Of a DNA stretch of 64,000 bases, positions 21,245-61,473 are shown piece by piece (positions within the stretch are counted from its first letter, which is position 1; each line of letters opens with the position of its first letter). The notes under the pieces are model-generated. The model was not told where the DNA came from and did no database searches. It saw only the letters and a program-made list of their open reading frames with translations. The position numbers and the translations under genes are program-made. Source of the DNA: an uncultured Bacilli bacterium (GTDB taxonomy: Bacteria > Bacillota_I > Bacilli_A > RF39 > UBA660); assembly GCA_947628965.1 (NCBI GenBank), contig CANRBV010000002.1, positions 16,247 to 80,246 of the forward strand, written 5' to 3'.

Positions 21245-21268
21245 AAAATCACTCCTTTCCTTTTATTT

Positions 21269-23384: not shown

Positions 23385-23393
23385 AGTATCCCT

Positions 23394-24111: not shown

Positions 24112-24172
24112 ATCACTACCCCTTCTATTATCGTTTTTTATTATAACATAAAAAAAACGCAAAGAAAAGTCT

Positions 24173-24376
24173 TTACGTATTTTTTTCTTGGCAAGTTCCT
24201 TCACCTGGTTTATTACCAGAAACATATTCTTGATCGACTAAAGAGCAGGAAGTTTTTGTTATAGAATCTTTTAAATAACCTCCAAAATAGCTAACTAAAG
24301 AAACGATTATGACACTAATAAGTGCAATAATTAGAACGTATTCAACTAACGTTTGTCCCTTATTATTTTTTAGCAT
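24173..24376 (-). CDS. flp: Flp-family type IVb prepilin
   Basis: ATG at 24374-24376 with AGGTGG RBS gives MLKNNKGQTLVEYVLIIALISVIIVSL... The class III leader G/QTLVEY fits the Flp prepilin motif; 67 aa. Confidence 0.7.
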   Translation of the reverse strand: MLKNNKGQTLVEYVLIIALISVIIVSLVSYFGGYLKDSITKTSCSLVDQEYVSGNKPGEGTCQEKNT

Positions 24377-37190: not shown

Positions 37191-37657
37191 TGATCATTCC
37201 CCATTTCTTTTTTTAATTTTTCTTTACCACGCTTTAATCTTAATTTAATAGCAGATTCAGACACTTTTAATAATTTAGATATTTCTTTAATTGAATATCC
37301 CTCGTAATAATATAAATAAAGAGAAATGCGATATTTTTTGGGTACATGAGAAATAAAATCAAATAAATCATCTCCCTTTGAATATTCTCCAAAGATATTG
37401 ATATCTTCTGGAACAAAACTATTCTTTTTCCAAAAAGAATTTAAATAATTTTTAGAATTATTTATTGCCACTCGAAATATCCACTTTTTTACCTCGATAT
37501 TAGTTTTATTAAATTTATTTATATTCTTATATAATTTTATAAATGTTTGTTGCAAAATATCTTCAGCATCGCTAAAATTTAAAGTATAACTATAAATTAA
37601 TCTAAAAACATCATCTTTATATTTTAAATAAATGTCATCAAATAATTTAGGCATCAC
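37187..37657 (-). CDS. ECF-type sigma-70 family sigma factor
   Basis: Region 2 (DAEDILQQTFIKLY) and region 4 HTH (YSIKEISKLLKVSESAIKLRLKRG); 156 aa. Confidence 0.75.
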   Translation of the reverse strand: MMPKLFDDIYLKYKDDVFRLIYSYTLNFSDAEDILQQTFIKLYKNINKFNKTNIEVKKWIFRVAINNSKNYLNSFWKKNSFVPEDINIFGEYSKGDDLFDFISHVPKKYRISLYLYYYEGYSIKEISKLLKVSESAIKLRLKRGKEKLKKEMGNDQ

Positions 37658-43025: not shown

Positions 43026-43049
43026 AAATAAAAAGAGCCTATTAAGCTC
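43026..43049 (-). terminator. terminator (GAGCTTAATAGGCTC hairpin plus T-run) overlapping the stop codon
   Basis: Differs by 1 nt from the hairpin at 42234-42248. Confidence 0.4.
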
Positions 43050-44163
43050 ATTTTATTAATAATTCGTATGTATTGTGCCAAAAATCATCAATTTTTTCTT
43101 TTTCATTTTGACAAGATCCAAAAGTACATTTAATACTATTAAGATAAGTAAAAGAAAATATAGCTTCATTATCATTATTATATTGAGTATAAGTTAATTC
43201 CTTATTTGAAAGATTTAAACTCCATTCTTCAATAATTCTTAAGTTTATTCTTGTTAAATAAAGATTATTTAATAGCTGCATATAACTATATGTTAATACA
43301 CTGTTTTTATCTTTATATTCAAATATATAATTATCATTTTGTAAAGTAAATTTTTCTTTAATCTTTTCAACCAAAATACTTGAATCAGTATTTTTTACTT
43401 CATTTACATCAAAATTATTATTTACTACTTCTTTATAATTAATTTTAAATAAATTATCATTAATATAATCTTCCGTTAACCATAATTTTATATTATCAGT
43501 ATTACCATTATTATAATTTGCTTCAAGATATAAATTTGCAATTATATAATTAATTTTAGTGAAATCAAAATATGAATCATATCCATAATAATCAATAAAA
43601 TTAATATAGTTATTATCACTAGAATATATAACAACTTTACCATTATTTTCATCTTGGTAGTATAAAGTTAAATGTTCTATGGAATCATCACTGACAGTAT
43701 CATCAATTCTAAAATAAATTTTATTTTTAGTTTCGACGAAAATACCATCAAAATATTTAATTGAATCTTTTATTCCAGTTATAGTATAAACTTTAATAGA
43801 TTTGTATGACATTATAAAGTAATATATTAAAAAAAGTATTAATATTGCAAAAATTGTCAATAATAATATCGATATTATTTTCTTACGTTTATTATTGCTA
43901 TCATATAATTTCAAAGTAATTTTATTAACTATTGAATTCTCCTCTTTTTTAGACAATCTAGAGCCAACTAATATCTCATTTATAGTTACATCAAATATGT
44001 CACTTAATCTTAACAAAGTTGAAGAGTCAGGAATAGTTACTCCTCGTTCCCATTTACTTACAGCACCTCTACCAATTGGTATTAAATCTGCTAGTTGTTC
44101 TTGTGTTAATTCTTTTTCTTTTCTAAGTTCGTGAATAAATTTTCCAATATGTTCAGTATTCAT
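43048..44163 (-). CDS. membrane-anchored XRE-family transcriptional regulator with a large extracytoplasmic domain
   Basis: N-terminal HTH (LTQEQLADLIPIGRGAVSKWERG), a TM segment around residues 96-118, and a ~250-aa C-terminal domain. Confidence 0.65.
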   Translation of the reverse strand: MNTEHIGKFIHELRKEKELTQEQLADLIPIGRGAVSKWERGVTIPDSSTLLRLSDIFDVTINEILVGSRLSKKEENSIVNKITLKLYDSNNKRKKIISILLLTIFAILILFLIYYFIMSYKSIKVYTITGIKDSIKYFDGIFVETKNKIYFRIDDTVSDDSIEHLTLYYQDENNGKVVIYSSDNNYINFIDYYGYDSYFDFTKINYIIANLYLEANYNNGNTDNIKLWLTEDYINDNLFKINYKEVVNNNFDVNEVKNTDSSILVEKIKEKFTLQNDNYIFEYKDKNSVLTYSYMQLLNNLYLTRINLRIIEEWSLNLSNKELTYTQYNNDNEAIFSFTYLNSIKCTFGSCQNEKEKIDDFWHNTYELLIK

Positions 44164-48312: not shown

Positions 48313-49890
48313 TTAACTGGCTGATTCAGAACTAGCATTTTTTTCTACAGACAAAACGATACGAAAACCAATCGTATTATCTTGGGAACCATCTTTATTT
48401 GAAAAGCCAAAAATACCAGCATTTGTTGGAGAAGTCATATTAAATCCCCGTATAAAATAGTAGTTAGTATTAAATACGAATTCAGCTTTGTCATTCCAAA
48501 ATGAACTTTGGTTACTTTTAAAAGGACCAACTTCTCCTGTTGCATCTCCCAAAATTCTTGTACTATAGTTATCATTTTTTGTATTATAATTATAAATATC
48601 ATAATATTTATTCTCTTTTGGAAAGTTTTCTTCTGTAAAATTTGACTTTGTACCATATTGCAGTGTCGTACTGTCATTTCCATACATTATTGCCATAACT
48701 TCTTCTCTTGCACCACCACTCATATCATAAATTCCTGTATAATTTCCAGTTGTACTTGCTTTTACACTATTAATGTCATTATAGTTATAAGAGTTGCTAT
48801 TACTTTTACCTGCACTTACTGCACCAGCAGTTTTATTAGCCGTTGCTCCACTAAATCCTGTAATATAATTACTATTATTATTTATATATACTTCTTCACA
48901 AGATATTACGCCATCTTCTGCTTTTGTACACTTACCATAAATGCTTTTTGCTAGATATGCAACAGCTCCCCACTCTGTATTCTTCATTAAATGACTTTGT
49001 AAATCCGATTTATAATTAAATGAAGTTCTAAAAGCATTTCCGATACTTATCTTTCTCCAACTATAAACATTTGGTCTTATTATAATGTTTGCAGCCTCTG
49101 TATCGTTATTATGATTTTGTGCAGTTGTTTTATTTGTTATATTACTATTACTGGTCTCAAACTTCCCTACCCAAAATCCGTTAGTGTTTTCGAAAGCTAA
49201 GAATGCAGGATGGGTCATCCACATACCTTCTTTACAACTTCCTTCATCTCCAGATTTTTCAGGAGTTTTACATTCTTTATAATCTGAATCTGTTTCTTCA
49301 TCATCTTTGGTATTTTCTAGTCCAAACTCAATTTCTATTGCTTGATTTTGTTTTTCCGTATTTAATGTTCCATTATCATTTTCATAATTTCCTAATTGTT
49401 CATCAAATAGTTTATATTTATACTTAGGTATCCAGACAAAATAACTTTCGATATCACTCTCGGGTATTTGGTCTCCATTTTTATAATCATCCGCTGATTT
49501 TCCATCTACTAAGATTACGGCATTTGCCCAATTCTTTTTTTCATAACTATACCAATTATGGGTTATATCAGTTTTATATACATTTCCACTACTAGCTCCT
49601 ATACTAACAGGTATCATTCCATCTCCAAGCACTGGATCTGCTCCATTTAAAAAATCTTCTTTATAAATTTCACTTGGTTTATCGATATCAGGAGATTCTA
49701 AATCTGGATTTCGTAGAAGTTCAAAACCAGGAAGATCGTTTAAATACTCTTGGATATTTTGTTTTTCATGATTTAATAATACTCTATTTTTAGCATAACT
49801 AGCTGAAATCATTAAAAGAGTTACTAAAAAAACTAAAAAGAAGGAATAGATTAAAGAAATCGCTATAAACCCCTTATTGTTATTCTTCAT
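48313..49890 (-). CDS. membrane-anchored protein with pilin-like N-terminus and an FGE-sulfatase (SUMF1/EgtB/PvdO-like) domain
   Basis: N-terminus MKNNNKGFIAISLIYSFFLVF resembles the ComGC-like pilin at 57508 but lacks Glu5. The C-terminal half has NTEWGAVAYLA, GIYDMSGGAREEV and GFRIVL, which resemble FGE-sulfatase motifs. Confidence 0.45.
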   Translation of the reverse strand: MKNNNKGFIAISLIYSFFLVFLVTLLMISASYAKNRVLLNHEKQNIQEYLNDLPGFELLRNPDLESPDIDKPSEIYKEDFLNGADPVLGDGMIPVSIGASSGNVYKTDITHNWYSYEKKNWANAVILVDGKSADDYKNGDQIPESDIESYFVWIPKYKYKLFDEQLGNYENDNGTLNTEKQNQAIEIEFGLENTKDDEETDSDYKECKTPEKSGDEGSCKEGMWMTHPAFLAFENTNGFWVGKFETSNSNITNKTTAQNHNNDTEAANIIIRPNVYSWRKISIGNAFRTSFNYKSDLQSHLMKNTEWGAVAYLAKSIYGKCTKAEDGVISCEEVYINNNSNYITGFSGATANKTAGAVSAGKSNSNSYNYNDINSVKASTTGNYTGIYDMSGGAREEVMAIMYGNDSTTLQYGTKSNFTEENFPKENKYYDIYNYNTKNDNYSTRILGDATGEVGPFKSNQSSFWNDKAEFVFNTNYYFIRGFNMTSPTNAGIFGFSNKDGSQDNTIGFRIVLSVEKNASSESAS

Positions 49891-49936: not shown

Positions 49937-50092
49937 CTAGCAATAATTTTTATTATAAATTCTTCGTATAGAAGAACCGACTGTACGACCCAATTCCAGT
50001 ACGGTAGTAATTAATCTAGCGACAGAATTTAATAAATTTGAAGTAATGGCTCCTCCTTTTAATTCATATAATTCAATTTCTTTTAATTTCAT
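49937..50092 (-). CDS. double-glycine-leader peptide (51 aa), candidate two-peptide bacteriocin component
   Basis: Absent from the track because it is under 60 aa. Translation MKLKEIELYELKGG/AITSNLLNSVARLITTVLELGRTVGSSIRRIYNKNYC; RBS AAAGGAA 8 nt upstream. Confidence 0.55.
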   Translation of the reverse strand: MKLKEIELYELKGGAITSNLLNSVARLITTVLELGRTVGSSIRRIYNKNYC

Positions 50093-50103
50093 ATTATTCC
50101 TTT

Positions 50104-50241
50104 CTAATTACATTTTAAAGGGCGTAGAATTCCATCAACTACTCCTGCTACAAAAACACCAACAGCTGTTAAAATACCAAGAAGTGTATAGCTAATTCCC
50201 CCTCCTACAATTTGATTTAATTCTTGCTCTTTTAAATACAT
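50104..50241 (-). CDS. double-glycine-leader peptide (45 aa) with GxxxG-rich hydrophobic core, candidate two-peptide bacteriocin component
   Basis: Absent from the track. Translation MYLKEQELNQIVGG/GISYTLLGILTAVGVFVAGVVDGILRPLKCN; RBS AAAGGTGAG. Confidence 0.6.
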   Translation of the reverse strand: MYLKEQELNQIVGGGISYTLLGILTAVGVFVAGVVDGILRPLKCN

Positions 50242-50248
50242 ATCCTAC

Positions 50249-50674
50249 TCACCTTTCTATTATTGATTTTGCTATTTTTTTAAGCAATCTTTCTTTGTTT
50301 TTATAAATTTGCATTGTAACAAATTCATTTTGATTCCCCTGAAATTTTTTTACTTTTAAAGAAATATTTTGTAAGGCATTATTATTACTATCCAAAACAG
50401 GATCTGAAAATGAAACGGTTTCTATTTCATAAGTTTTATGATTAATTTTAATAAATTCATAAATAAAATCTGTAGTGGGATAAAAAAAGTTAATAGTGCA
50501 TTCTTCTTGGCAAAAAATTTGTCCTTTTACTTCTAAAACATCATAAGCTTCTTTTTTGTAAGCATAAAATAAAAGTATTAGAAAAAGGCAAAAAGGAATT
50601 AACCAAAAAAAGCTATATTTATTTTTATCCTTATTTAAATAACTTGGTAAATTGTATTTTAAATATTCTGACAT
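50249..50674 (-). CDS. single-TM protein, candidate bacteriocin immunity or short accessory protein
   Basis: 141 aa with one TM segment; overlaps the ABC transporter stop by 16 nt. Confidence 0.35.
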   Translation of the reverse strand: MSEYLKYNLPSYLNKDKNKYSFFWLIPFCLFLILLFYAYKKEAYDVLEVKGQIFCQEECTINFFYPTTDFIYEFIKINHKTYEIETVSFSDPVLDSNNNALQNISLKVKKFQGNQNEFVTMQIYKNKERLLKKIAKSIIER

Positions 50675-52725
50675 AAAAGCTTGCTAAAATCATAAACTTC
50701 ATCAAAATATTGTTCCTGTTTTTTATGGCTTACATAAATAATCGTTTTATCTTTAAAATATTCCTTTAATTTTTTTATAATACTTATTTCTAATTCATCA
50801 TTTACTTCACTTAATGCTTCATCTAAAATAAGAATTTGAAAGTTGTTAAGTAAAGCCCTTGCTAAGATAATTCGTTGTCTTTCACCACCAGAAATATTAG
50901 TAGAATCTTTCATAAGAAACGTTTCATAACGTAATGGTTTTTTAGAAACAATACTCTCTATTTCACATATTTGTAAAATATCTAAATATTTACTTTCTAT
51001 TATCTCACGATTTAACAAAATATTGTTTTTAATGGTATCTTGAAATAAATTTTCTTTTTGACTTACATAAGTAATATTTTTGCGAATAGTTTCTAAGCTA
51101 TAGTCGTTAAGACTCACTTCTCCAATCTTAATATTATTATTTTTTACTTCAATTAAACGACTTAAAATTTGACATAAGGTACTTTTTCCACATCCGCTTG
51201 CTCCCTTAAATAAGACACAACTTTTTTCTTTAATTTCCAAAGAAAAATCTTGAAATAATTTAGAAAAATCATTATAAGAAAAATTTAAATGTTCTATTTT
51301 AACATTACCATTTTTAAAATCTTGTAGACCGATTTTGTCTTGCTCTTCTTCAATAGTATAAAAATCATTTAATTTTTGAATATTTACTTTTACATAATTG
51401 TAGCTTGGAATTAAATTAATAATTGATTTAAATGGGGTGAAGAAGAAGGAAATTAAACTTTCAAATGTTATTAAATTAATTAAACTACAACGATTGTTTA
51501 ACATTTCATATAAACCTATTGAAATAAGACAAAAATCAAGTAATTGCTCTAAAAAAGTTGCTAAGCTACTTGTTTGCATGACTTTCTTGTTTAAATCATA
51601 AGATTGATTTAAAAATTGAACTAAATGCATTTCAATTTTTTGAAAAAACAATTGCAAAATATTTAGATTTTTAAGAGAAATAATTGATTCTACATTTTCT
51701 AAGACGGTCGATTGAAACTGCACTTCACTATCATTTACTTGCAAAGCTTTCTTATACATTATTTTGCCAGAAATCATTCCAAAAACAATATAACAAAAAA
51801 CAAAAAAACAAAGAATAAAAAATAGTTTTTTATGAATGTGCCATAGAATGATGCCTACACTAAATGATAAAATAGAATCTAAACCTATCGTGACAATAAT
51901 TTCGGAAAATACTTCTTTCATATTTTCTAATTCTTTTATACGAACCATAATTTCACCAGTTGTTCTATCTTTCATAAAATAATGAGGAAGTAAAAATAAA
52001 TGATGCAAAAAATTGTAATACAATTGTCCATCTAAATTTTTATTTAAATAAGTTTTAAAATGATTGCGAAAAAACATAAACAAATACTTTAGAACATGTA
52101 AAGCTAAAAAAATAAGCATTACACACAAAAGAACTTTTTTATCTTCGCTATCTTGAACAAAATTTAAGCCAACTTTAAAATAAAAGCCAGTTAAGATTGT
52201 TATAAAAGTCAAAAACCCTGTTAAGAAAAAAAGTTTTAATAAGTTTTTCTTTTCATTTTTAAAGAACTCTATGATCATTTCCAACAAATGATTTTGATTC
52301 ACTACTTTTGGAAGAGGATTTTTAGGATACAAGCACAAGATATTACCAGTCCAAATAGCTTCAAAATCATTTTTAGTCATTTTTATATTCCCTTTAGCTG
52401 GATCCATTATTTCTATGTCTAAAGAATTTATTTTATAGATTACTAGGAAATGTGTGTAATGATTGATTTCGACATGTGCAATAATGGGTAATAAAGTTCC
52501 TTCTAGATCTTTTAAACTTTCTAATTTCATTCCATAGGCATCAAATCCATAATTTCTAGCTGTTTTAATAAGATGATAAGCCGTTGTCCCCTCTATAGAC
52601 GTTTGCGTATCTATCCGTAATATTTCAAGTGGTACATATCCGCCATAATATTTTATAATAGAAAGTAAAGAACAGATTCCACAATCTTTTAAATCCTGTT
52701 GTCTAACTACAATATTTTTTTTCAT
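50659..52725 (-). CDS. peptidase-C39-domain bacteriocin/peptide ABC exporter (ComA/LagD type)
   Basis: N-terminal C39 Cys motif QQDLKDCGICSL, 6 TM segments, Walker A GASGCGKST, signature ISGGERQRI. Start ATG 52723-52725 with AGGAGGTG RBS; the track's GTG start reads through the RBS. Confidence 0.85.
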   Translation of the reverse strand: MKKNIVVRQQDLKDCGICSLLSIIKYYGGYVPLEILRIDTQTSIEGTTAYHLIKTARNYGFDAYGMKLESLKDLEGTLLPIIAHVEINHYTHFLVIYKINSLDIEIMDPAKGNIKMTKNDFEAIWTGNILCLYPKNPLPKVVNQNHLLEMIIEFFKNEKKNLLKLFFLTGFLTFITILTGFYFKVGLNFVQDSEDKKVLLCVMLIFLALHVLKYLFMFFRNHFKTYLNKNLDGQLYYNFLHHLFLLPHYFMKDRTTGEIMVRIKELENMKEVFSEIIVTIGLDSILSFSVGIILWHIHKKLFFILCFFVFCYIVFGMISGKIMYKKALQVNDSEVQFQSTVLENVESIISLKNLNILQLFFQKIEMHLVQFLNQSYDLNKKVMQTSSLATFLEQLLDFCLISIGLYEMLNNRCSLINLITFESLISFFFTPFKSIINLIPSYNYVKVNIQKLNDFYTIEEEQDKIGLQDFKNGNVKIEHLNFSYNDFSKLFQDFSLEIKEKSCVLFKGASGCGKSTLCQILSRLIEVKNNNIKIGEVSLNDYSLETIRKNITYVSQKENLFQDTIKNNILLNREIIESKYLDILQICEIESIVSKKPLRYETFLMKDSTNISGGERQRIILARALLNNFQILILDEALSEVNDELEISIIKKLKEYFKDKTIIYVSHKKQEQYFDEVYDFSKLLCQNI

Positions 52726-52730
52726 TTTTT

Positions 52731-52780
52731 TCACCTCCTACTTATATATATACACTCTAAATTTGCAATTTCCTTTTTTT
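52731..52780 (-). promoter_or_regulatory. conserved 50-bp promoter/operator-like element, copy A (contains dyad AAATT-TGC-AATTT, TATATATA and RBS)
   Basis: 46/50 identical (ungapped) to 61364-61413, which lies upstream of comEA. Confidence 0.4.
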
Positions 52781-52815: not shown

Positions 52816-53016
52816 TTATTTTTCATAAAAAATCGTATCGGGAGTACAACCCAGTATATTAGCAATATCTATGGCAATTTCATAATAAAGTTTTCTTTCT
52901 TTATGTTCCAATTGCCAATAAAAAGATTTGCTAATTTTTAACATAGTGGCCATATCTTGATAACTTAAGTTTTTTTGCATTCTTAATTTTTTTAATTTTT
53001 TATAACACTTTTTCAT
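52816..53016 (-). CDS. small XRE-family HTH regulator (about 66 aa)
   Basis: HTH LSYQDMATMLKISKSFYWQLE; ATG 53014-53016 has GAGGGA RBS. Confidence 0.55.
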   Translation of the reverse strand: MKKCYKKLKKLRMQKNLSYQDMATMLKISKSFYWQLEHKERKLYYEIAIDIANILGCTPDTIFYEK

Positions 53017-53118
53017 TTTATCCCTCATTTTTTAAATTATAGCACATTTTTATTACAATAACCCACCAATTTACGAATTTAAACTATTTTTTAGAGAAAA
53101 TTAGTATTAGGTGATTGT

Positions 53119-53565
53119 ATGTTAGATAAATTAAAGGAATTAAGAGAATACGAAGGTCTAACACAAAGAGAAGTTGCAGAAAAATTACATGTTAAAAGAA
53201 GTACATATGCTGGATGGGAAAATGGTAAAGATATTATTCCTTTAGAAAGATTAAATGCGCTTGCCAATCTTTATCACACTAGCTTGGATTATTTAATCGG
53301 CAATTCGCCAACCAAAGAGCAAGTTTTAGAGATTCAAAAGATTAATCAACAAGAATTTTCCCAAAATTTAAAAAAATTTCGAAAAGAAAAACATCTTACT
53401 CAAGAAAAATTAGCTGAAAAATTAAAAACAAGCCAATCTAATATTCATAAATATGAGAATAATAAGAGTTTAATTACAACCACATATGCCTTAGAATTCA
53501 CAAAACAGTACCATTATTCTTTAGATAAACTATTAGGAAGAAAAAAAACAACTAGCACAAAATAG
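53119..53565 (+). CDS. tandem-HTH XRE-family regulator
   Basis: Two HTH_3-like modules: LTQREVAEKLHVKRSTYAGWE and LTQEKLAEKLKTSQSNIHKYE. Confidence 0.65.
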   Translation: MLDKLKELREYEGLTQREVAEKLHVKRSTYAGWENGKDIIPLERLNALANLYHTSLDYLIGNSPTKEQVLEIQKINQQEFSQNLKKFRKEKHLTQEKLAEKLKTSQSNIHKYENNKSLITTTYALEFTKQYHYSLDKLLGRKKTTSTK

Positions 53566-53573
53566 TTGTTTTT

Positions 53574-53816
53574 TTAAAACATTTTATCAATATTTTTTGG
53601 AACTTTGTCATTAACAATTGTATTAATAATTTTATCTTCTTGTTCTTTCGTAACATTTTTACCTGTCATTAGACTTAATGTTGATATAACTTCTCTTAAC
53701 GTATTTTCATCTTTCATATTTCCTTGTTGAAGTTTTTTAGCTAAATTAACAATTGTATTTTTATCAACTTTAGTCTTTTTTTCGACTTTTTTAAAAAAGT
53801 CGTCTTTTAATTCCAC
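53574..53816 (-). CDS. small helical hypothetical protein (80 aa)
   Basis: ORF between XRE modules; no family recognised. Confidence 0.35.
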   Translation of the reverse strand: MELKDDFFKKVEKKTKVDKNTIVNLAKKLQQGNMKDENTLREVISTLSLMTGKNVTKEQEDKIINTIVNDKVPKNIDKMF

Positions 53817-53862
53817 TTTATCACCTACTAAGTATTATATGACAAAATTCTAATGGGTTTCT

Positions 53863-54075
53863 CTAATTTTTAAACTCTTCATAAAAAATATCATCAGGTT
53901 TTAAATGAAAAATAGAAGCAATTTCTTTAGCCATATCATAAGAAAGACGCCTATTTTTATGTTCAATTTGCCAATAATAAGCTTTGCTAATATTTAAAGA
54001 TTTTGCCATATCTTCACAACTTAAATTTCTTTTTTCACGTAAATTTTTTAATTTCTTTATATAGGTTGACTTCAT
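53863..54075 (-). CDS. small XRE-family HTH regulator (paralog of the 52816-53016 product)
   Basis: LSCEDMAKSLNISKAYYWQIEHKNRRL. Confidence 0.55.
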   Translation of the reverse strand: MKSTYIKKLKNLREKRNLSCEDMAKSLNISKAYYWQIEHKNRRLSYDMAKEIASIFHLKPDDIFYEEFKN

Positions 54076-54195
54076 AACTCCTCCGAATGATATTAATCAT
54101 ACCCTATATTTTAATAATTGTCAATTTTTGTGCAGTTCTAGTGTAGTAGACTTGTAAAATATAAAAATCTATTATTTATATTAAGGATGTGAAGT

Positions 54196-54453
54196 ATGAA
54201 AATAGAAACAATTATCGGAAATAATTTAAAATATTTTCGATATCAATCTAAATTATCTCAAGAAAAGTTTTATGGACAATTTGGAATGAATTATCGCTAT
54301 TTAGCAAGCATCGAACGTGGAAAAATTAACATGTCTGTAGAATTTTTAGACAACTTAGCTAAAGTATTAAAAGTGGATATTCGTGATTTTTTCAATCCCG
54401 ATAAAACCAGATGGGTATTTAAAAAACGTATTGATGGAAAAGAGAATAAATAA
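54196..54453 (+). CDS. XRE-family HTH regulator
   Basis: LSQEKFYGQFGMNYRYLASIERGK. Confidence 0.55.
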   Translation: MKIETIIGNNLKYFRYQSKLSQEKFYGQFGMNYRYLASIERGKINMSVEFLDNLAKVLKVDIRDFFNPDKTRWVFKKRIDGKENK

Positions 54454-57097: not shown

Positions 57098-57508
57098 TTA
57101 AGTTCGATCACAAGTTGAATTTATTTTTTCATCATTAAAATGAACATAAAAACGATTATATTTGATATATACAATTAATTCCATATCATCCATTCCTGAA
57201 TTATCACGAGGGTCTAAAATGTAAGGAGCAATATTATTATCCTTTTTCAAATCTCCACTATTAATTAAATCCATAACTGTAATTTTTTTGCTGGAATTAC
57301 CATCATAATTTTCAGTAAAACTTTCTTTACGATCTTCTCCATATAATCTAGCTGCTGTTTCAATTGAATCTATTTTTTTACAATACATATTCGTTTTTAA
57401 TTTATTTGAAATCGAAATGGTACTTGGCACTGCAACGGCAATTAATATTGCTAAAATCACAATAACAGCAAGTAATTCTACCAATGTAAATCCTTTGTTA
57501 TTTTTCAT
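57098..57508 (-). CDS. type IV pilin-like / ComGC-like pseudopilin
   Basis: Start ATG 57506-57508 (GGGTGAG RBS) gives MKNNKGFTLVELLAVIVILAILIAV, a prepilin class III leader with Phe+1 and Glu+5. Confidence 0.7.
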   Translation of the reverse strand: MKNNKGFTLVELLAVIVILAILIAVAVPSTISISNKLKTNMYCKKIDSIETAARLYGEDRKESFTENYDGNSSKKITVMDLINSGDLKKDNNIAPYILDPRDNSGMDDMELIVYIKYNRFYVHFNDEKINSTCDRT

Positions 57509-57582
57509 ATATCTCACCCAATTTTAGTATACCACGATTCCATAAAATCTTAGTATAAGTTTTTTAATAAGTGTCAAATACT

Positions 57583-58518
57583 CTATTCCCAAATTTTTAA
57601 TAAAAGTGTTTTCAATTCTAAAAAACGATCTTTTTGTCCGCTTTTAATGTGATAATCAATATTGCTGAGTTCTTTTAAAATGTTTTTTAAATCTTCTTCA
57701 TAATAATAGTTTGCGTTCGTGATTGCTTTATTGATTTGCCAATCTTGCAAACCCAGTTTTTTCCCTATATCTGCTTTTCGATACCCATTTCTTAATAAAA
57801 ACTCTACGCTGTACATAAGACGATATTCCCTTGCTAGTAACATAAGTAAACTAATTGGTTCTACTTTTAAAATATACAAATCCTCTAATATTTTTAATGC
57901 CAATTGACTATCTTTTTTTACTACGGCATCCAAAAACTTAAAATTATTATCCATGAGGGTTTTAGAAATTATTTCATAAACGTCGGCTTTTTCTATTTTT
58001 TTAGGGGTTTCATAATACAAAAAAATTTTTTGTAATTCATTAAATATTAAATCAAAATTATTTTGACAGGTAGTCAAAATATACTCAATTGTTTCTGTCT
58101 CTATTTTGAATTTATTTTGAAAAACCATATCTCTAACTTTATTTATTAAATCAAACTTATTAACAAGATCCGTAGCTTTTACTGGGTATTTTTGAGAAAA
58201 TTCTTTATACACTTTTTTTCGAGCATCAACTTTTGAAGAACATGTAAAAATAATTGTAGTTAAAGGTATAGGATTTTTTATGTACTTTAAAAATAGTTCT
58301 ATATCTTCTTCTTTTGATTTATTGCTTGTAAAAAAATTAGCATTGCGAACAATAATATATTTTTGTTCTTGAAACATCGAAACATAAGTTGCTTCTTCTA
58401 TTACATCTTGTAATGTTGAAACACTTAAATCCATCGTTAAAACATTGTTATTCCCTTTAATAATTTTTTCTATTTCTTCTTCGATTAAACGAAAACTTTC
58501 ACCATAAAACAAATACAT
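57583..58518 (-). CDS. holA: DNA polymerase III delta subunit
   Basis: 311 aa; N-terminus YLFYGE; position after comEC is typical of Firmicutes. Confidence 0.75.
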   Translation of the reverse strand: MYLFYGESFRLIEEEIEKIIKGNNNVLTMDLSVSTLQDVIEEATYVSMFQEQKYIIVRNANFFTSNKSKEEDIELFLKYIKNPIPLTTIIFTCSSKVDARKKVYKEFSQKYPVKATDLVNKFDLINKVRDMVFQNKFKIETETIEYILTTCQNNFDLIFNELQKIFLYYETPKKIEKADVYEIISKTLMDNNFKFLDAVVKKDSQLALKILEDLYILKVEPISLLMLLAREYRLMYSVEFLLRNGYRKADIGKKLGLQDWQINKAITNANYYYEEDLKNILKELSNIDYHIKSGQKDRFLELKTLLLKIWE

Positions 58519-58661: not shown

Positions 58662-60719
58662 TTAGGGATTATGCGTAATGATCTTATAATAGTTTTGCGA
58701 TAATTTAATTTCGATCGTTCCTTTTTGATCAGTTCTTAAAATAGTCGAATTTGCTAACGTATTTAAAACGCTTGCTTTGGGATGTCCATAGCGATTTTTT
58801 TGCCCAACGGATATAATACTGTATTTTGGAAGCATTGTATTTATAAACTCAGTACTTGAAGAAGTATCTGAACCGTGATGTCCAACCTTTAAAAAATCAA
58901 CTTTAAAATGATAATTTTTTAAAAAATCTTTTTCCACATTTTTAGAGGCGTCCCCCATCAATAAAAATGTTTGATTATAAATGTTTATTCTAGTTAGAAT
59001 ACTATTCTCATTTTCATTATCATACTCTCTTAAAAAATAAGTTTTAAAATCAAAGCATTTAGAAGAATATTTGGTTACTTGCCGATAGGTTTCAATTAAC
59101 TCTGCTTCTTTTTCCGTTAACGATCCATGGTTAATCATGACATTTTTAAAAAATATTTCTTTCCCAATTGCACTTGCATAACCAATATGATCCATATCTC
59201 CATGGGTAATCAATAATAAATCTATTTTTCTTATTCGAAGACTTTTCAAAAAAAGAATTATATTGTCACTTAATTTAAATTCTTTATTTTGAACTTGATA
59301 ATCTTTTTTAGGATATGAAGTATTTCCCCCTGTATCAATTAGAATTACTTCTTTATTTTTTGGAGCTACAAATAATGTAGCATCCCCTTGCCCAACATCT
59401 AAAAAATAGACAGAATAACTTCTTTCTAATAAATTTTTATTATATAAAAAAATAAAAAAAAGAATGAAAAAAACAAATAAGCGTTTTAAATGAAATTTAA
59501 AACCTAATACTAAAAAAACATAGAGTAGTAAAACTTCCCATAATTGTATTTTTCCGATTATAATAGGACAAGCAAATGTTTGAAAAAAAGTGTTTAAATA
59601 TCCTAAAATCCCAATACTTATTTGAAATAATGGTAAAAAAATAGGTATAAAAAAGGATAAAAAAGCAAGTGGAAAAACAATAGCGCTAATAAAAGGAACT
59701 AAAAGAATATTAGCCAAGATAGAAAATAAATTTACTTCATAACTTATATATATGGTAATAGGCATACTAAATAAAAAAGTAATTAGACTTATTAAAATAA
59801 TTTTTTTAAATTTATTTTGTTTTTTTAATAAATCGCTGGTATAGATAAGAGAAAACGTAATGGTAAAGGTATACCAAAATCCAATATTATAGATATAAAA
59901 AGGATTATAAAGTAAAAGAAAAAAGGCTGTTAAAAATAAAATTTTTATTGGTGATAAATTAAATTGTCCTCTTTTGTTTATCTTTGTGAAACCCAAAAAT
60001 AAAATAGCTCGTATAAATGAAATAGAAAATCCCGTCACAAATAAGTAAAAAAATAGAAACAAAAAAATAATGATTGTTTTATATTTTAATTTTTTTAATA
60101 TTTTATTTAAAAAAAGATAAATAAAAGATAAATGCATTCCTGATAATGCAAATAAATGACCAACACCATTATTCATAATTTGATCATATTCTTTAGAATC
60201 AATAAAAGTCTTATCTCCAAGGATGAAAGCTCTTAAATAGGCATTATTGCCCAGTTTTTTTAATCGTTCATCTATTTTATTTTTTATTTGGTTTGCAAAA
60301 GAAATTGGAATATTTTGAATTTTTATTTTTGAAGCGGAAAAGCAATAATAAATTCTTTCATGATACAAATATTTTTTATAATCAAAAGTATTAGGAATGG
60401 TTGGATTCTTAATTTCTTGTTTTTCTCCGTACAATGTAATGGTAAGACCAATTTTTAAATTTTTTTCTAAATCTATTTTTTCCTCTTCACTTTTTAAATA
60501 ATAAGTAGCTCTAATTTTTTCTTTATTTTTAACAAGCAACCGAACTTTATCTCCATCAATAGAATAAGATAAAATTTTAGCAGTGATCTTTTGGGTTTCA
60601 TCGGGAATATGTGTTTTATAAGTAATAATTTGGGTAAAAAATAAAACATAGAAAAAAACAAAAGAAAAAAAACAGAAATAAAAGCTATTCGACTGTAATA
60701 GAATCTTTAATTTTTTCAT
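58662..60719 (-). CDS. comEC: DNA internalization competence protein ComEC/Rec2
   Basis: Polytopic competence domain plus C-terminal metallo-beta-lactamase motif (YFLDVGQGDATLF...ITHGDMDHIG). The start is uncertain. ATG 60717-60719 overlaps the comEA 3' end by 35 nt. Confidence 0.8.
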   Translation of the reverse strand: MKKLKILLQSNSFYFCFFSFVFFYVLFFTQIITYKTHIPDETQKITAKILSYSIDGDKVRLLVKNKEKIRATYYLKSEEEKIDLEKNLKIGLTITLYGEKQEIKNPTIPNTFDYKKYLYHERIYYCFSASKIKIQNIPISFANQIKNKIDERLKKLGNNAYLRAFILGDKTFIDSKEYDQIMNNGVGHLFALSGMHLSFIYLFLNKILKKLKYKTIIIFLFLFFYLFVTGFSISFIRAILFLGFTKINKRGQFNLSPIKILFLTAFFLLLYNPFYIYNIGFWYTFTITFSLIYTSDLLKKQNKFKKIILISLITFLFSMPITIYISYEVNLFSILANILLVPFISAIVFPLAFLSFFIPIFLPLFQISIGILGYLNTFFQTFACPIIIGKIQLWEVLLLYVFLVLGFKFHLKRLFVFFILFFIFLYNKNLLERSYSVYFLDVGQGDATLFVAPKNKEVILIDTGGNTSYPKKDYQVQNKEFKLSDNIILFLKSLRIRKIDLLLITHGDMDHIGYASAIGKEIFFKNVMINHGSLTEKEAELIETYRQVTKYSSKCFDFKTYFLREYDNENENSILTRINIYNQTFLLMGDASKNVEKDFLKNYHFKVDFLKVGHHGSDTSSSTEFINTMLPKYSIISVGQKNRYGHPKASVLNTLANSTILRTDQKGTIEIKLSQNYYKIITHNP

Positions 60720-61356
60720 AGATAGCTTCTCCAATTCCTGACACATTTTTAATTTCAGATATGTCTTTAAATGGTGTTTTAGTTCGATACTCAATTATAT
60801 TGAGTGCTTTTGCTTCTCCAATTCCCGACAATGTCATTAATTCTTCCTTTGTAGCGGTATTTAAAGAAATTTTTTTATTCGTTACTATAGAAGATGGATT
60901 GCTATTTAAGGATGTAGTTTTATTTGCAGAAGTACTGGTTTTATTAGATACGGTTGTCTTTGTAGAGGAAGCAATTGTACTATTTAACTTTTTTACTTCA
61001 CTTTTAGATAAAATAACAATCATATCTTCATCATTAAGTTTTTTACTTAAGTTAATATTATCTGTTGTGCCCTCGCTTTTAAGACCACCTGCTAATTTTA
61101 TTAAATCGTTAATAATTGTGCCCTCTTCTACTTCATAAACTCCTGGATTCTTTACATAGCCTTTAAGATCTACTTTTATTTTAGGGGATTCTGTATTATC
61201 TTCCGTAGTAGATGCTTCTAAACAAGGTTCACAAGGTATTATTGGTTCTTTTTCATTAAAAAGAAAATACAAAGTAAAAAGATTGGTTATAAAAAGAAAA
61301 ACAATTACAACAAAATAGACTAATTTTCCTTGTAGACACTTTTCTAAAAAAAACAT
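60685..61356 (-). CDS. comEA: competence protein ComEA (DNA receptor; SLBB plus tandem HhH)
   Basis: N-terminal TM, then VDLKGYVKNPGVYEV and LSGIGEAKALNIIEYR...VSGIGEAIYEKIK. Confidence 0.8.
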   Translation of the reverse strand: MFFLEKCLQGKLVYFVVIVFLFITNLFTLYFLFNEKEPIIPCEPCLEASTTEDNTESPKIKVDLKGYVKNPGVYEVEEGTIINDLIKLAGGLKSEGTTDNINLSKKLNDEDMIVILSKSEVKKLNSTIASSTKTTVSNKTSTSANKTTSLNSNPSSIVTNKKISLNTATKEELMTLSGIGEAKALNIIEYRTKTPFKDISEIKNVSGIGEAIYEKIKDSITVE

Positions 61357-61363
61357 AAAATTA

Positions 61364-61413
61364 TCACCTCCTACTTTTATATATACACCATAAATTTGTA
61401 ATTTCCTTTTTTT
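61364..61413 (-). promoter_or_regulatory. conserved 50-bp promoter/operator-like element, copy B, upstream of comEA
   Basis: 46/50 identical to 52731-52780; ends 7 nt before the comEA ATG and includes AGGAGGTGA. Confidence 0.4.
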
Positions 61414-61473
61414 ATATTTAATTAATGCAAAAAAAAAGATAATTTTTATAATAAAATTATCTTCTTTTCGTTT

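What the first reader, a model, noticed from the sequence alone, without database searches (positions are those of the whole stretch)
52731..52780. Near-identical 50-bp promoter/operator element shared by the C39-ABC/peptide operon and comEA-comEC
The 50 nt immediately upstream of the ABC exporter start (52731-52780) and of the comEA start (61364-61413) are 46/50 identical without gaps. In gene orientation the element reads AAAAAAAGGAAATT(G/A)CAAATTTA(GA/TG)GTGTATATATA(T/A)AAGTAGGAGGTGA. It contains a 5-3-5 dyad AAATT-TG(C/T)-AATTT, a TG plus TATATATA -10-like block, and the RBS. Identity at this level across two functionally different operons implies a common regulator, such as a competence-specific sigma factor or a dimeric HTH protein. 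In Streptococcus pneumoniae the late competence regulon co-expresses the DNA-uptake genes and the two-peptide bacteriocin CibAB used for fratricide. This locus looks like an analogous wiring in a different lineage.
Basis: seen in the sequence. Interest (0 to 1): 0.75.

Follow-up and report, generated by a model that had tools for sequence, protein, structure and literature searches.

The report
Shared sigma-H-like competence promoter cassette
A DNA-uptake operon and a peptide-bacteriocin export operon in an uncultured gut bacterium carry the same ~50-base promoter, which looks like a sigma-H/ComX-type alternative sigma factor promoter. The same promoter recurs before DNA-uptake, bacteriocin and nuclease genes in related genomes, which points to a competence-like regulon in a lineage that has never been grown.

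Summary
Window 52731-52780(-) and 61364-61413(-) are 46/50 identical with sharp borders, and they are the only two copies in 64 kb.

The element is best read as a promoter plus a very short leader:
- an A-tract;
- a -35 box AAAGGAAAT;
- an 11-nt T-rich spacer;
- a -10 box (A/G)GTGTAT;
- ATATA(A/T)AA, then GTAGGAGGTGA, which holds the predicted +1 and the Shine-Dalgarno sequence.

The -35 box and the spacing match sigma-H promoters of Listeria com genes and C. difficile. The -10 box is a GTAT variant, and sister lineages carry the canonical GAAT.

The motif is kept upstream of comEA in 13 related loci and upstream of the C39-ABC/two-peptide operon in 9 related loci. In related uncultured "Bacilli" gut MAGs it occurs several times per genome. 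There it sits before Rpn- and YhcG-type nucleases, a UvrD helicase, adhesins and dnaG-sigA. These gene classes overlap strikingly with the pneumococcal ComX regulon.

The cognate sigma factor was not found. No comG, comF, dprA or ssb site was seen.

Verdict: a new member of a known kind (a sigma-H/ComX-type regulon), with unusually long, genome-specific promoter conservation.

The parts
52731..52780 (-). Element copy 1 (promoter plus leader of the C39-ABC/peptide operon): AAAAAAAGGAAATTGCAAATTTAGAGTGTATATATATAAGTAGGAGGTGA
52768..52776 (-). Copy 1, -35 box AAAGGAAAT (sigma-H type, RMAGGRWWW)
   Evidence: Sequence; consensus from PMC4754846 and PMC7438776.
52750..52756 (-). Copy 1, -10 box AGTGTAT (GTAT variant of RRMGAAW), 11 nt after the -35 box
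52734..52741 (-). Copy 1, conserved GTAGGAGG: predicted +1 (G at about 52741, inferred) and the Shine-Dalgarno GGAGG (52734-52738). ATG is at 52725.
   Evidence: Column conservation. The TSS position is inferred from the spacing in ComX and SigH promoters with mapped TSS.
61364..61413 (-). Element copy 2 (promoter plus leader of comEA-comEC): AAAAAAAGGAAATTACAAATTTATGGTGTATATATAAAAGTAGGAGGTGA
61401..61409 (-). Copy 2, -35 box AAAGGAAAT
61383..61389 (-). Copy 2, -10 box GGTGTAT. The same heptamer is the -10 of the C. difficile SigH promoter of CD2650.
61367..61374 (-). Copy 2, GTAGGAGG: predicted +1 (about 61374, inferred) and the Shine-Dalgarno sequence. ATG is at 61356.
61430..61469 (-). Terminator-like hairpin with a U-run that ends the upstream ftsW gene. 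It leaves only the element as room for a comEA promoter.
   Evidence: dG -13.8 kcal/mol, z -2.9, 1 of 200 shuffles folds as well.
60685..61356 (-). comEA (SLBB + HHH_3 domains)
58662..60794 (-). comEC (DUF4131 + Competence + Lactamase_B domains); holA follows at 57583-58518
50659..52725 (-). ABC exporter with an N-terminal C39 peptidase domain
50249..50674 (-). 141-aa single-pass membrane protein with no family hit. It is conserved in the same operon position in relatives, so it may be an accessory or immunity protein.
50104..50241 (-). 45-aa peptide with a double-glycine leader (MYLKEQELNQIVGG|G...)
   Evidence: (weak ComC hit). Orthologues in L051 (78% identity), L043 and L178.
49937..50092 (-). 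51-aa peptide with a double-glycine leader (MKLKEIELYELKGG|A...)
48313..49890 (-). 525-aa N-terminally anchored protein of unknown family, probably the last gene of the operon. Paralogues in relatives carry their own copy of the motif (L111).

Best explanation
Each 50-mer is a complete promoter-plus-leader unit for an alternative sigma factor of the sigma-H/ComX family.

**Proposed mechanism**
- RNA polymerase carrying that sigma factor contacts the A-tract and AAAGGAAAT at -35. Eleven bases downstream it contacts (A/G)GTGTAT at -10.
- Transcription starts about 8-9 nt later, at the G of the conserved GTAGGAGG. The mRNA therefore begins almost directly with its Shine-Dalgarno sequence.
- When the sigma factor becomes active, comEA-comEC (DNA uptake) and the C39-ABC exporter with its two double-glycine peptides are switched on together. 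The peptides look like a two-peptide bacteriocin or pheromone.
- Elsewhere in the genome the same switch would turn on Rpn- and YhcG-type PD-(D/E)XK nucleases and other genes.

**Shown**
- The two copies and their borders.
- Conservation at orthologous promoters.
- Several sites per related genome, oriented towards genes.
- The match to published sigma-H -35 box and spacing.

**Inferred**
- The identity of the sigma factor.
- The transcription start site.
- Co-expression of the operons.
- A physiological link to competence or fratricide.

The unusually long conservation, and the genome-specific spacer, suggest one of two things. Either the sigma factor reads an extended site, as reported for pneumococcal ComX, or the promoters are homogenised or copied within each genome.
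For: **1.
- 46/50 identity and only two copies in the window.

**2. Match to published sigma-H promoters**
- The Listeria sigma-H promoters of comEA, comGA and coiA read AAAGGA(A/T)TT-N11-GGCGAAT, with consensus RMAGGRWWW-N11-12-RRMGAAW (PMC4754846). The window has AAAGGAAAT-N11-GGTGTAT and AAAGGAAAT-N11-AGTGTAT.
- C. difficile SigH promoters include ftsZ AAAGGAAAATTTACGTTTTTGTGGAAT and cwp27 AAAGGAAAATATTCTTTTATGTAGAAT. GTAT variants also occur there: CD2650 GGTGTAT and CD1900 GTTGTAT (PMC7438776).

**3. Orthologous comEA promoters keep the motif**
- It is kept at 53-65% ComEA identity in L005, L007, L009, L235 and L237, and also in L031, L073, L112, L137, L182, L214 and L216.
- L007 has the canonical ATAGAAT at -10.

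**4. ABC/two-peptide operons in other genomes carry it**
- L043, L051, L083, L168, L178, L201 and L232, several of them with TGAATAT at -10.

**5. Database scans**
- The genome and metagenome pattern scans found several sites per MAG in uncultured 'Bacilli/Tenericutes' gut MAGs.
- 66 of 85 sites have an SD-preceded ORF within 130 nt downstream. In the divergent direction the figure is 13 of 85.

**6. The same pattern hits classical sigma-H targets in Clostridia**
- ftsA-ftsZ-spoIIGA-sigE in Clostridium (L064, L052) and HD-dnaG-sigA in gut Clostridia-like contigs.
- ftsZ and sigA2 are SigH-dependent in C. difficile. ftsZ is in the B. subtilis sigma-H regulon.

**7. Parallel with the pneumococcal ComX regulon**
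- The regulon content (comEA-EC, a two-peptide bacteriocin, multi-copy Rpn-like nuclease genes, dnaG-sigA) mirrors the pneumococcal competence response. There cibABC, comEA-comEC and several Rpn-like (pseudo)genes are ComX-regulated, rpoD is also induced but no ComX site was found for it, and the ComX site extends over 20-30 bp with a T-rich stretch (PMC6560143).

**8. Local context**
- A terminator hairpin lies directly upstream of the comEA element.
- The element is not among the 60 listed sigma-70-type matches (49 weaker ones were not shown).
- There is no Rfam family.
Against: - No sigma-H or ComX-like gene was found in the window or in about 1.5 Mb of fetched DNA. The query was B. subtilis SigH recalled from memory. 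The window holds only an ECF sigma factor and a 532-aa RpoD-like sigma factor.
- A PWM built from 34 C. difficile SigH promoters scores the comEA element at 15.3 bits (rank 8 of about 128,000 positions), but shuffled windows reach 15-21 bits. That independent test is not significant.
- The -10 box has T where the consensus has A (GTAT against GAAT), and T at the 'M' position.
- comG, comF, dprA, ssb and coiA were not seen behind the motif.
- Conservation of the spacer and of the +1 region is greater than sigma factor contacts normally require.
Confidence: 0.6

Rival explanations
1. The element is a sigma-A (housekeeping) promoter with a TG-type extended -10 box (TGTATATAT) and no -35 hexamer. 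A DNA-binding regulator (activator or repressor, possibly a dimeric HTH such as one of the nearby XRE proteins) would control it by binding AAAGGAAAT and the AAATT-N3-AATTT dyad.
For: - The dyad exists in both copies.
- An ATTT block mirroring the AAAT of the -35 box is kept in about 80% of 106 related sites, although the search pattern did not require it.
- Four XRE-type genes lie just upstream of the ABC operon.
- TG plus an A/T-rich hexamer is present.
Against: - The TG is 0 or 2 nt from any TATAAT-like hexamer rather than 1 nt, and the GAATAT variants weaken the hexamer.
- The inner dyad pair does not covary (42/106 complementary against 37 expected, p about 0.17). The outer G-G/T-T pair is not complementary (4/106).
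- comEA has no XRE neighbour, and the XRE cluster is not conserved next to ABC operons in relatives.
- The -35 box and its spacing match sigma-H promoters exactly.
Confidence: 0.15
2. The near-identity mainly reflects copying rather than selection. On this reading a portable promoter-leader cassette has been duplicated or homogenised by gene conversion within each genome ('mobile promoter'), riding largely on the multi-copy Rpn gene family. The comEA/ABC identity then says little about a dedicated competence circuit.
For: - Spacer identity is 0.81 within a genome against 0.53 between genomes. Paralogous promoters in one genome are more alike than orthologous comEA promoters.
- Genome-specific signatures extend into the +1 region.
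- The commonest downstream gene is a multi-copy Rpn family with 41 proteins.
- Many contigs break right after the motif, as expected for repeats.
Against: - The motif is retained at orthologous comEA and ABC promoters across species with 53-65% protein identity, so it is old and under selection at these loci.
- Orientation and distance to the gene are fixed.
- Similarity does not extend upstream of the A-tract or into the coding regions.
- Copying and shared regulation are not mutually exclusive. A copied promoter still confers the same control.
Confidence: 0.12
3. The motif is read by a different alternative sigma factor of the lineage. One candidate is the 216-aa SigF/SigB/SigG-like sigma factor that sits with a STAS-domain protein (anti-anti-sigma type). 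Another is the 156-aa ECF or the 532-aa RpoD-like sigma factor of the window.
For: - In L102 the operon is motif -> Rpn -> STAS -> sigma(216 aa). Its homologue in L065 lies directly upstream of a motif.
- Autoregulated alternative sigma factor operons are common.
Against: - Known SigF/G/B and ECF promoters have quite different -35 boxes (established knowledge).
- The STAS-sigma operon of L065 has its own sigma-A-like TTGACA promoter and no motif.
- The ECF gene in the window has a GTAAC-type upstream sequence, and neither sigma factor gene in the window carries the motif.
- In B. subtilis and C. difficile the spoIIAA-sigF operon is itself a sigma-H target, which would explain the L102 arrangement.
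Confidence: 0.1
4. The conserved block is a transcribed cis-regulatory RNA (a 5' UTR element), with the real promoter further upstream.
For: In many relatives the conserved GTAGAAGG forms the 5' arm of a stem-loop placed before the real SD.
Against: - The two window leaders have no stable fold (dG -0.4 and -3.2 kcal/mol, z > 0).
- There is no Rfam match.
- Upstream of the comEA copy there is only a terminator.
- The most conserved columns are the -35 and -10 boxes, not paired positions.
Confidence: 0.03

Closest known systems
Sigma-H-dependent promoters of competence operons in non-sporulating Firmicutes: Listeria monocytogenes comEA, comGA and coiA; S. aureus and Latilactobacillus sakei SigH
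   Same: - The -35 box AAAGGA(A/T)(A/T)T.
- An 11-nt gap to a 7-nt -10 box ending in G(A)AT.
- Location in front of comEA-comEC.
- An alternative sigma factor acts as the master switch of the DNA-uptake genes (PMC4754846; PMC9300618).
   Different: - The -10 box is GTAT in this genome; sister lineages have GAAT.
- Conservation is much longer: the A-tract, a T-rich spacer, and +1 GTAGGAGG.
- No comG or coiA site was seen.
- The regulon includes a bacteriocin-type exporter and many nuclease genes.
- The sigma factor gene has not been found.
Streptococcus pneumoniae ComX (sigma-X) late competence regulon and its cin-box
   Same: - The regulon content matches: comEA-comEC, the two-peptide bacteriocin cibABC, and several Rpn-like 'recombination-promoting nuclease/transposase' (pseudo)genes are ComX-regulated; rpoD is induced during competence, but no ComX site was found for it.
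- The recognition site extends over 20-30 bp, with a T-rich stretch before a GAATA core and an A-rich stretch before the TSS (PMC6560143).
   Different: - The cin-box core TMCGAATA is absent; here it is TG(T/A)ATATA.
- A strong sigma-H-type -35 box is present here, which ComX promoters lack.
- Here the exporter itself is behind the motif. In pneumococcus comAB belongs to the early ComE regulon (established knowledge).
- No CSP/ComDE or ComRS module was seen.
Sigma-H (Spo0H) transition-state regulon of B. subtilis and C. difficile
   Same: - The promoter architecture is the same.
- The same search pattern lands on ftsAZ and dnaG-sigA promoters in Clostridia. Both are sigma-H targets in the model organisms.
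- In B. subtilis, sigma-H also drives exported signalling peptides, the phr genes (established knowledge).
   Different: - No sporulation genes were seen in the window or related loci, so this lineage looks non-sporulating.
- Its regulon is dominated by DNA-uptake, nuclease and peptide-export genes.
'Putative mobile promoters' (homologous promoter sequences upstream of non-homologous genes; Matus-Garcia, Nijveen and van Passel 2012, recalled from memory)
   Same: A near-identical promoter-plus-leader segment lies in front of unrelated genes within one genome, and similarity is higher within genomes than between them.
   Different: There are no terminal repeats and no variable placement. The element keeps a fixed distance and orientation to the start codon and is retained at orthologous loci across species.

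Membership tests
Sigma-H-type promoter | -35 box RMAGGRWWW | tested here: met
   AAAGGAAAT in both copies. The consensus comes from PMC4754846. C. difficile examples are AAAGGAAAA and AAAGGAATT.
Sigma-H-type promoter | 11-12 nt between the 9-nt -35 box and the 7-nt -10 box | tested here: met
   Exactly 11 nt in both copies and in all related sites. In the C. difficile training set the gap is 11 nt in 14 promoters and 12 nt in 17.
Sigma-H-type promoter | -10 box RRMGAAW | tested here: inconclusive
   GGTGTAT and AGTGTAT match at R, R, G, A and W, but have T in place of M and T in place of the first A. The same GTAT heptamers occur in the lower-scoring C. difficile SigH promoters CD2650 and CD1900. 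Relatives have TGAATAT or AGAATAT.
Sigma-H-type promoter | Scores above chance with a matrix built from experimentally defined sigma-H promoters | tested here: inconclusive
   The comEA copy scores 15.3 bits, rank 8 in the window. Shuffled windows have maxima of 15-21 bits.
Sigma-H-type promoter | A sigH/comX-family gene is present in the genome | not testable with these tools
   Only 64 kb of the genome is held. No such gene is in the window or the fetched loci.
Sigma-H-type promoter | TSS 7-9 nt downstream of the -10 box, and dependence on the sigma factor | not testable with these tools
   Requires 5'-end mapping or genetics.
Streptococcal ComX cin-box | Core TMCGAATA at -10 | tested here: not met
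   The window has GTGTATATA. The closest relatives have TTGAATATA. CGAATA is absent.
Streptococcal ComX cin-box | T-rich stretch upstream and A-rich stretch downstream of the core; regulon containing comEA-EC and bacteriocin genes | tested here: met
   Spacer columns are T-rich and ATATA(A)A follows the core. Regulon content is, compared with PMC6560143.
ComK box (Bacillus) | Two AT-boxes AAAA-N5-TTTT separated by 8, 18 or 31 bp (definition from memory) | tested here: not met
   At most one imperfect AAAT-N5-ATTT unit is present, with no second box.
Palindromic operator of a dimeric HTH regulator | Inverted repeat maintained across sites | tested here: inconclusive
   The AAAT/ATTT arms are kept in about 80% of sites. 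The inner pair is not significantly complementary (p about 0.17), and the pair outside is complementary in 4/106 sites.
Class II (double-glycine) peptide export system | ABC transporter with an N-terminal C39 peptidase domain | tested here: met
   Peptidase_C39 E=8e-33, plus ABC_membrane and ABC_tran.
Class II (double-glycine) peptide export system | Adjacent small peptides with a GG leader | tested here: met
   The 45-aa peptide has ...QIVGG|G and the 51-aa peptide has ...ELKGG|A. There is a weak ComC leader hit, E=0.0024, below the family cut-off.
Class II (double-glycine) peptide export system | Antimicrobial or pheromone activity; an immunity gene | not testable with these tools
   The 141-aa membrane protein is conserved in the operon but has no family hit.
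Miniature mobile repeat (MITE/RUP/BOX-like) | Terminal inverted repeats and variable position and orientation relative to genes | tested here: not met
   The element has a fixed orientation and distance to start codons. 66/85 sites have an ORF downstream, against 13/85 in the divergent direction. Similarity ends at the A-tract.

The most novel reading that the evidence does not exclude
An uncultured, small-genome gut 'Bacilli/Tenericutes' lineage (found in rabbit, human Hadza, mouse and ruminant samples) runs a competence-and-fratricide-like programme from a roughly 52-bp promoter-leader cassette read by a sigma-H/ComX-type sigma factor. The cassette wires together the ComEA/ComEC DNA channel, a two-peptide bacteriocin with its exporter, and a large set of Rpn and YhcG PD-(D/E)XK nucleases. 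It evolves in concert within each genome, either by co-evolution with the sigma factor or by promoter conversion. This would be a second, independent case, besides streptococci, in which Rpn-type nucleases and bacteriocins are hard-wired to DNA uptake. It would imply that these nucleases have a conserved role in transformation.
Probability: 0.3. Interest if true: 0.65.

Novelty: new member of a known kind. Interest (0 to 1): 0.5.

Why it matters
If the reading is right, it yields a testable regulon and a predicted competence state for a widespread gut lineage that has no cultured member and no genetics.

It also links Rpn- and YhcG-type nucleases and a two-peptide bacteriocin to DNA uptake in a second lineage besides streptococci. 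That hints that these accessory functions are conserved parts of Gram-positive competence rather than pneumococcal oddities.

The very long, genome-specific promoter conservation is a clean natural case for asking a further question. It could show whether alternative sigma factor promoters co-evolve with their sigma factor or spread by copying.

Practically, the motif can be used to find regulon members and induction conditions in metatranscriptomes.

Tried and rejected
- **C. difficile SigH matrix.** A PWM from 34 published C. difficile SigH promoters, scanned over the window, put the comEA copy in the top ten. Shuffled windows score as high, so it gives no independent significance.
- **Dyad covariation.** Not significant.
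- **Search for the sigma factor.**
  - The 148-aa 'divergent sigma' is a tandem XRE HTH protein.
  - The window's sigma factors are an ECF type (156 aa, with a probable anti-sigma factor) and a 532-aa RpoD-like protein.
  - phmmer with B. subtilis SigH (recalled from memory) over all ORFs of all fetched loci found only SigA-like, sporulation and SigF/B-like sigma factors.
  - Unannotated 140-280-aa ORFs of the window do not look like sigma factors.
- **XRE cluster as local regulator.** It is not conserved next to ABC operons in relatives. There is only one homologue of the tandem-HTH protein, in L043.
- **Known RNA families.** None found.
- **Sigma-70 consensus scan.** The element is not among the 60 listed matches (49 weaker ones not shown), and the scan as a whole is at chance level.
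- **ComK box and cin-box.** Neither is met.
- **Viral contig scan.** Used only to learn the output format; 13 scattered hits, not followed up.
- **PDB sequence search of the 525-aa protein.** No hit.
- **First look-up of ComEA.** It failed because I added one codon; repeated correctly.
- **Britton et al. 2002 (PMC135291).** The paper is not held.
Full report
**1. The observation**

Read in gene orientation (minus strand), the 50 nt before the ABC exporter are:

AAAAAAAGGAAATTGCAAATTTAGAGTGTATATATATAAGTAGGAGGTGA

The 50 nt before comEA are:

AAAAAAAGGAAATTACAAATTTATGGTGTATATATAAAAGTAGGAGGTGA

These are identical at 46 of 50 positions without gaps.
- In an alignment of 250 nt around each copy, the similarity begins exactly at the A-tract and ends at GGAGGTGA. 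The flanks and the coding starts are unrelated.
- A 31-nt core with up to three mismatches matches only these two places in 64 kb, and never in 100 shuffles.
- A much looser -35/-10 pattern also finds only these two.
- GGAGGTGA itself occurs only twice in the window, against 51 GGAGG.

So this is not a generic ribosome-binding context. The window is 27% G+C.

**2. The genes**
- *Copy 1 operon.* Downstream lie an ABC transporter with a C39 peptidase domain, a 141-aa membrane protein without family, and two small peptides with double-glycine leaders. The peptides are 45 aa (...QIVGG|G...) and 51 aa (...ELKGG|A...). A 525-aa N-terminally anchored protein without family comes last.
- *Copy 2 operon.* Downstream lie comEA and comEC, then holA, a pilin-like gene and der.
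Its sigma-region-4 hit is only the HTH. Three more small XRE genes flank it.
- *Upstream of the comEA copy.* The ftsW gene ends in a 17-bp hairpin followed by a U-run (dG -13.8 kcal/mol, z -2.9). The element is therefore the only room left for a comEA promoter.

**3. Source and relatives**

The exact ComEA protein occurs only on metagenome contigs. Homologues at 53-65% identity come from uncultured organisms. In public records they are labelled 'uncultured Bacilli', 'Tenericutes' or 'Firmicutes', from rabbit, human, mouse and ruminant gut samples.

Their comEA genes sit in the same def-ftsW-comEA-comEC-holA context. They keep the element, as these examples show:
- L005: AAAGGAAAT-N13-TGTATATATAAAAGTAGGAGGTGA
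- L009: ...TGTACATATATAGTGGAGGTGA
- L007: AAAGGAAATCTCTATTTTATATAGAATATATATAGTGGAGGTGA
- L235 and L237 are further variants.

The promoter is therefore old and maintained at this locus.

**4. What kind of signal it is**
- *Listeria.* Published sigma-H promoters of comEA, comGA and coiA read AAAGGA(A/T)TT, 11 nt, GGCGAAT. The consensus used there is RMAGGRWWW-N11-12-RRMGAAW (PMC4754846).
- *C. difficile.* SigH promoters supported by TSS mapping and sigH-mutant transcriptomes include ftsZ (AAAGGAAAATTTACGTTTTTGTGGAAT) and cwp27 (AAAGGAAAATATTCTTTTATGTAGAAT). Two carry GTAT instead of GAAT: CD2650 (...GGTGTAT) and CD1900 (...GTTGTAT) (PMC7438776).
- *The window.* The two elements read AAAGGAAAT, 11 nt, GGTGTAT or AGTGTAT. 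The -35 box and the spacing fit exactly. The -10 box is a GTAT variant.
- *Sister lineages.* They carry the canonical GAAT at the same position, both before comEA (L007) and before the ABC operon (L043, L083, L168).
- *Other signals.* The streptococcal cin-box (TTNCGAATAA or TMCGAATA) is not present, although the GAATA core and the T-rich stretch before it are similar. No sigma-70-type match covers the elements among the 60 listed matches. No Rfam family matches.

**5. An honest negative**

I built a two-block matrix from 34 C. difficile SigH promoters and scanned the window with it. The comEA copy ranks 8th of about 128,000 positions (15.3 bits). Shuffled windows reach 15-21 bits, however, because AAAGGA-type strings are also ribosome-binding sites in this A+T-rich DNA. 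The sigma-H assignment therefore rests on the consensus match plus comparative evidence, not on a significant independent score.

**6. The regulon**

*The two scans.*
- A scan of 185,579 species genomes used AAAGGAAAT-N13-WGWAYATATA.
- A stricter scan of metagenome contigs returned 92 loci.

*Hits outside the lineage.* In Clostridium species the pattern lies before ftsA-ftsZ-spoIIGA-sigE (L064, L052). In gut Clostridia-like contigs it lies before HD-dnaG-sigA (26 loci). ftsZ and sigA2 are SigH-dependent in C. difficile, and ftsZ is in the B. subtilis sigma-H regulon. A pattern derived from this window therefore lands on bona fide sigma-H promoters elsewhere.

*Hits inside the lineage.* In the uncultured Bacilli group there are several sites per MAG:
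- CANRJW: four (three from the scan plus the comEA site in L005)
- CANPXO: four
- CAKOHH: four
- CAZIDI: four
- CANOWY and CAJLEF: three each

Of 85 sites with enough flanking DNA, 66 have an SD-preceded ORF starting within 130 nt downstream. In the opposite direction the figure is 13.

*Genes behind the motif*:
- the Rpn/PDDEXK_2 'recombination-promoting nuclease' family (41 proteins, by far the commonest);
- the C39-ABC/accessory/two-peptide operon (9 loci);
- comEA-comEC (14 loci, counting the window and the protein look-ups);
- YhcG/DUF1016 nucleases;
- a UvrD-type helicase;
- SpaA/thioester adhesins with a sortase-like neighbour;
- paralogues of the 525-aa protein;
- a 45-aa peptide gene;
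- dnaG-sigA.

I did not see comG, comF, dprA, ssb or coiA. The patterns were strict and the genome scan was truncated, so this absence is weak evidence.

**7. The pneumococcal parallel**

The RNA-seq study of the pneumococcal competence regulon (PMC6560143) reports four relevant things:
- The ComX site extends over 20-30 bp (TTTTTNHNNNYTHTTMCGAATADWNWRRD-[TSS]).
- The ComX regulon contains comEA-comEC and the two-peptide bacteriocin cibABC.
- rpoD is induced during competence, although no ComX site was found for it.

These are the same four gene classes found behind the motif here. It is also the main reason I rate the competence-type reading above a general stationary-phase reading.

**8. Anatomy beyond the two boxes**

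In 106 distinct related sites, several positions that the search patterns did not force are conserved:
- four to five extra A before AAAGGAAAT;
- an ATTT block in the middle of the spacer (about 80% of sites);
- T before the G of the -10 box;
- AGTAG(G/A)(G/A)GG after the A/T-rich stretch.

By the spacing seen in ComX and SigH promoters with mapped TSS, the G of GTAGGAGG is the likely +1. This is an inference.

The role of that block differs between loci:
- In the window, and at many other sites, it is the Shine-Dalgarno sequence, with the ATG 6-9 nt later.
- At many Rpn genes it is instead the 5' arm of a stem-loop (dG -8 to -14 kcal/mol), followed by TTAGAAAGGAG and the ATG.
- The two window leaders do not fold.

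**9. The dyad**

The inner pair is complementary in 42/106 sites against 37 expected (p about 0.17). The next outer pair is complementary in 4/106. An operator for a dimeric protein is therefore neither supported nor excluded.

**10. Concerted evolution**

Spacer identity is 0.81 for promoter pairs within one genome and 0.53 between genomes. Each genome has its own bases just upstream of the -10 G:
- CCTTG in CANRJW
- CGGTG in CAZIDI, CANOWY and CANRCV
- TTTTG in CANPXO and CAKOHH

Each genome also has its own +1 region. The window's own two copies differ at 3 of 13 spacer positions. The orthologous comEA promoters of the window and L005 differ at 6.

There are two possible causes. Either the sigma factor reads an extended site and co-evolves with it, or promoters are copied or converted within genomes. 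Many metagenome contigs end right after the motif, as expected if the downstream Rpn genes are assembly-breaking repeats.

**11. The missing sigma factor**
- The window encodes an ECF sigma factor (156 aa, 37187-37657) with a probable anti-sigma factor. It also encodes a 532-aa RpoD-like sigma factor next to a Tad pilus locus. Neither gene carries the motif. The ECF gene has a GTAAC-type upstream sequence.
- In L102 a 216-aa SigF/B/G-like sigma factor with a STAS partner lies downstream of a motif-driven Rpn gene. Its homologue in L065 lies just upstream of a motif, but has its own TTGACA-type promoter. The spoIIAA-sigF operon is a sigma-H target in the model species, so this arrangement fits either reading.
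- No SigH-like protein was found in the DNA I hold.

**12. Verdict**

The finding is real and biologically meaningful. It is a shared alternative sigma factor promoter (most likely sigma-H/ComX family, confidence about 0.6). It couples DNA uptake with peptide-bacteriocin export, as part of a lineage-wide regulon rich in PD-(D/E)XK nucleases.

It is a new member of a known kind of system rather than a new kind. Two features stand out:
- the length and genome-specific homogeneity of the cassette;
- the recurrence of the pneumococcal gene set in an unrelated, uncultured lineage.

Noticed in passing
window 19539-24225 (-) and 17872-19470 (-): A Tad/Flp-type pilus locus: two T2SSF proteins, a T2SSE ATPase, a ParA-like protein and TadE-like pseudopilins. 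It is followed by a 532-aa RpoD-like sigma factor with long N- and C-terminal extensions. This is not the dnaG-linked sigA, which is 369-435 aa in relatives. In L237 the Tad genes lie directly next to def-ftsW-comEA. No comG operon was seen, so the Tad pilus might serve DNA uptake.
   Followed up: partly
window 36381-37657 (-): An ECF-type sigma factor (156 aa) overlaps a 269-aa membrane protein without family, probably its anti-sigma factor. The upstream sequence has a GTAAC-type -35 box and is unrelated to the element.
   Followed up: partly
window 48313-49890 (-); L111, L120, L031, L054: The 525-aa protein has an N-terminal anchor and a large extracellular part, with no Pfam, NCBIfam or PDB sequence hit. 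It belongs to a family that carries its own copy of the motif in relatives: L111 holds three motif copies within 3.5 kb. Its C-terminal YDMSGGA...GFRIVLS resembles the motifs of FGE-sulfatase-type domains (from memory, not tested).
   Followed up: partly
L024, L048, L077, L082, L143, L164, L177, L184, L194, L200, L202, L204, L206 (contig ends): Many contigs stop within about 40-100 nt after the motif. This suggests that the leader plus the Rpn gene behind it is a multi-copy repeat that breaks assemblies.
   Followed up: no
L097 (about 5739, minus strand), L100, L220: Several motif-driven Rpn genes have ATA or ATC where close paralogues have ATG (L097 ...GGAGGTGTTTATTATAGAACTT against L049 ...GGAGGTGTTTAAGATGGAACTT). 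These are either decaying copies or genes with non-canonical start codons.
   Followed up: no
L237/L238 6157-7566: comEC is truncated (509 aa, no beta-lactamase domain). It is followed by a large serine recombinase and a CI-like repressor on the opposite strand, so a prophage-like element appears to have inserted into comEC. This recalls the excisable elements in com genes of Listeria and Bacillus.
   Followed up: no
L235 6675-7571 (GCA_900089725.1): A YhcG/DUF1016 PD-(D/E)XK nuclease gene sits inside the comEA-comEC-...-holA row. In other genomes the same family has its own copy of the motif (L027, L071, L173, L185).
   Followed up: partly
L025, L054, L074, L111, L112, L114 and others, leader regions: In many relatives the conserved GTAGAAGG after the -10 box is the 5' arm of a stem-loop (dG -8 to -14 kcal/mol), followed by TTAGAAAGGAG and the start codon. 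This gives a 5'-terminal hairpin variant of the same cassette.
   Followed up: partly
window 52816-54453: A cluster of four small XRE-family genes lies just upstream of the ABC operon. Two are 70-aa paralogues on the minus strand, one is a 148-aa tandem-HTH protein and one is an 85-aa protein. Only the tandem-HTH protein has a homologue near an ABC operon elsewhere (L043).
   Followed up: partly
window 43048-44163 (-): A 371-aa protein with an N-terminal XRE HTH domain, one transmembrane segment and a large extracellular domain without family. It looks like a membrane-bound transcription regulator.
   Followed up: no
window 57098-57517 (-): A 139-aa type IV pilin-like protein (N_methyl motif) lies right after holA. 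It has its own TTGACA-type upstream sequence and no copy of the motif.
   Followed up: partly
L102 6247-7240; L065 1080-2110: A STAS-domain protein and a 216-aa SigF/B/G-like sigma factor occur as a pair, without an intervening anti-sigma kinase gene, in two MAGs of the lineage. In both they lie next to motif-bearing Rpn genes.
   Followed up: partly
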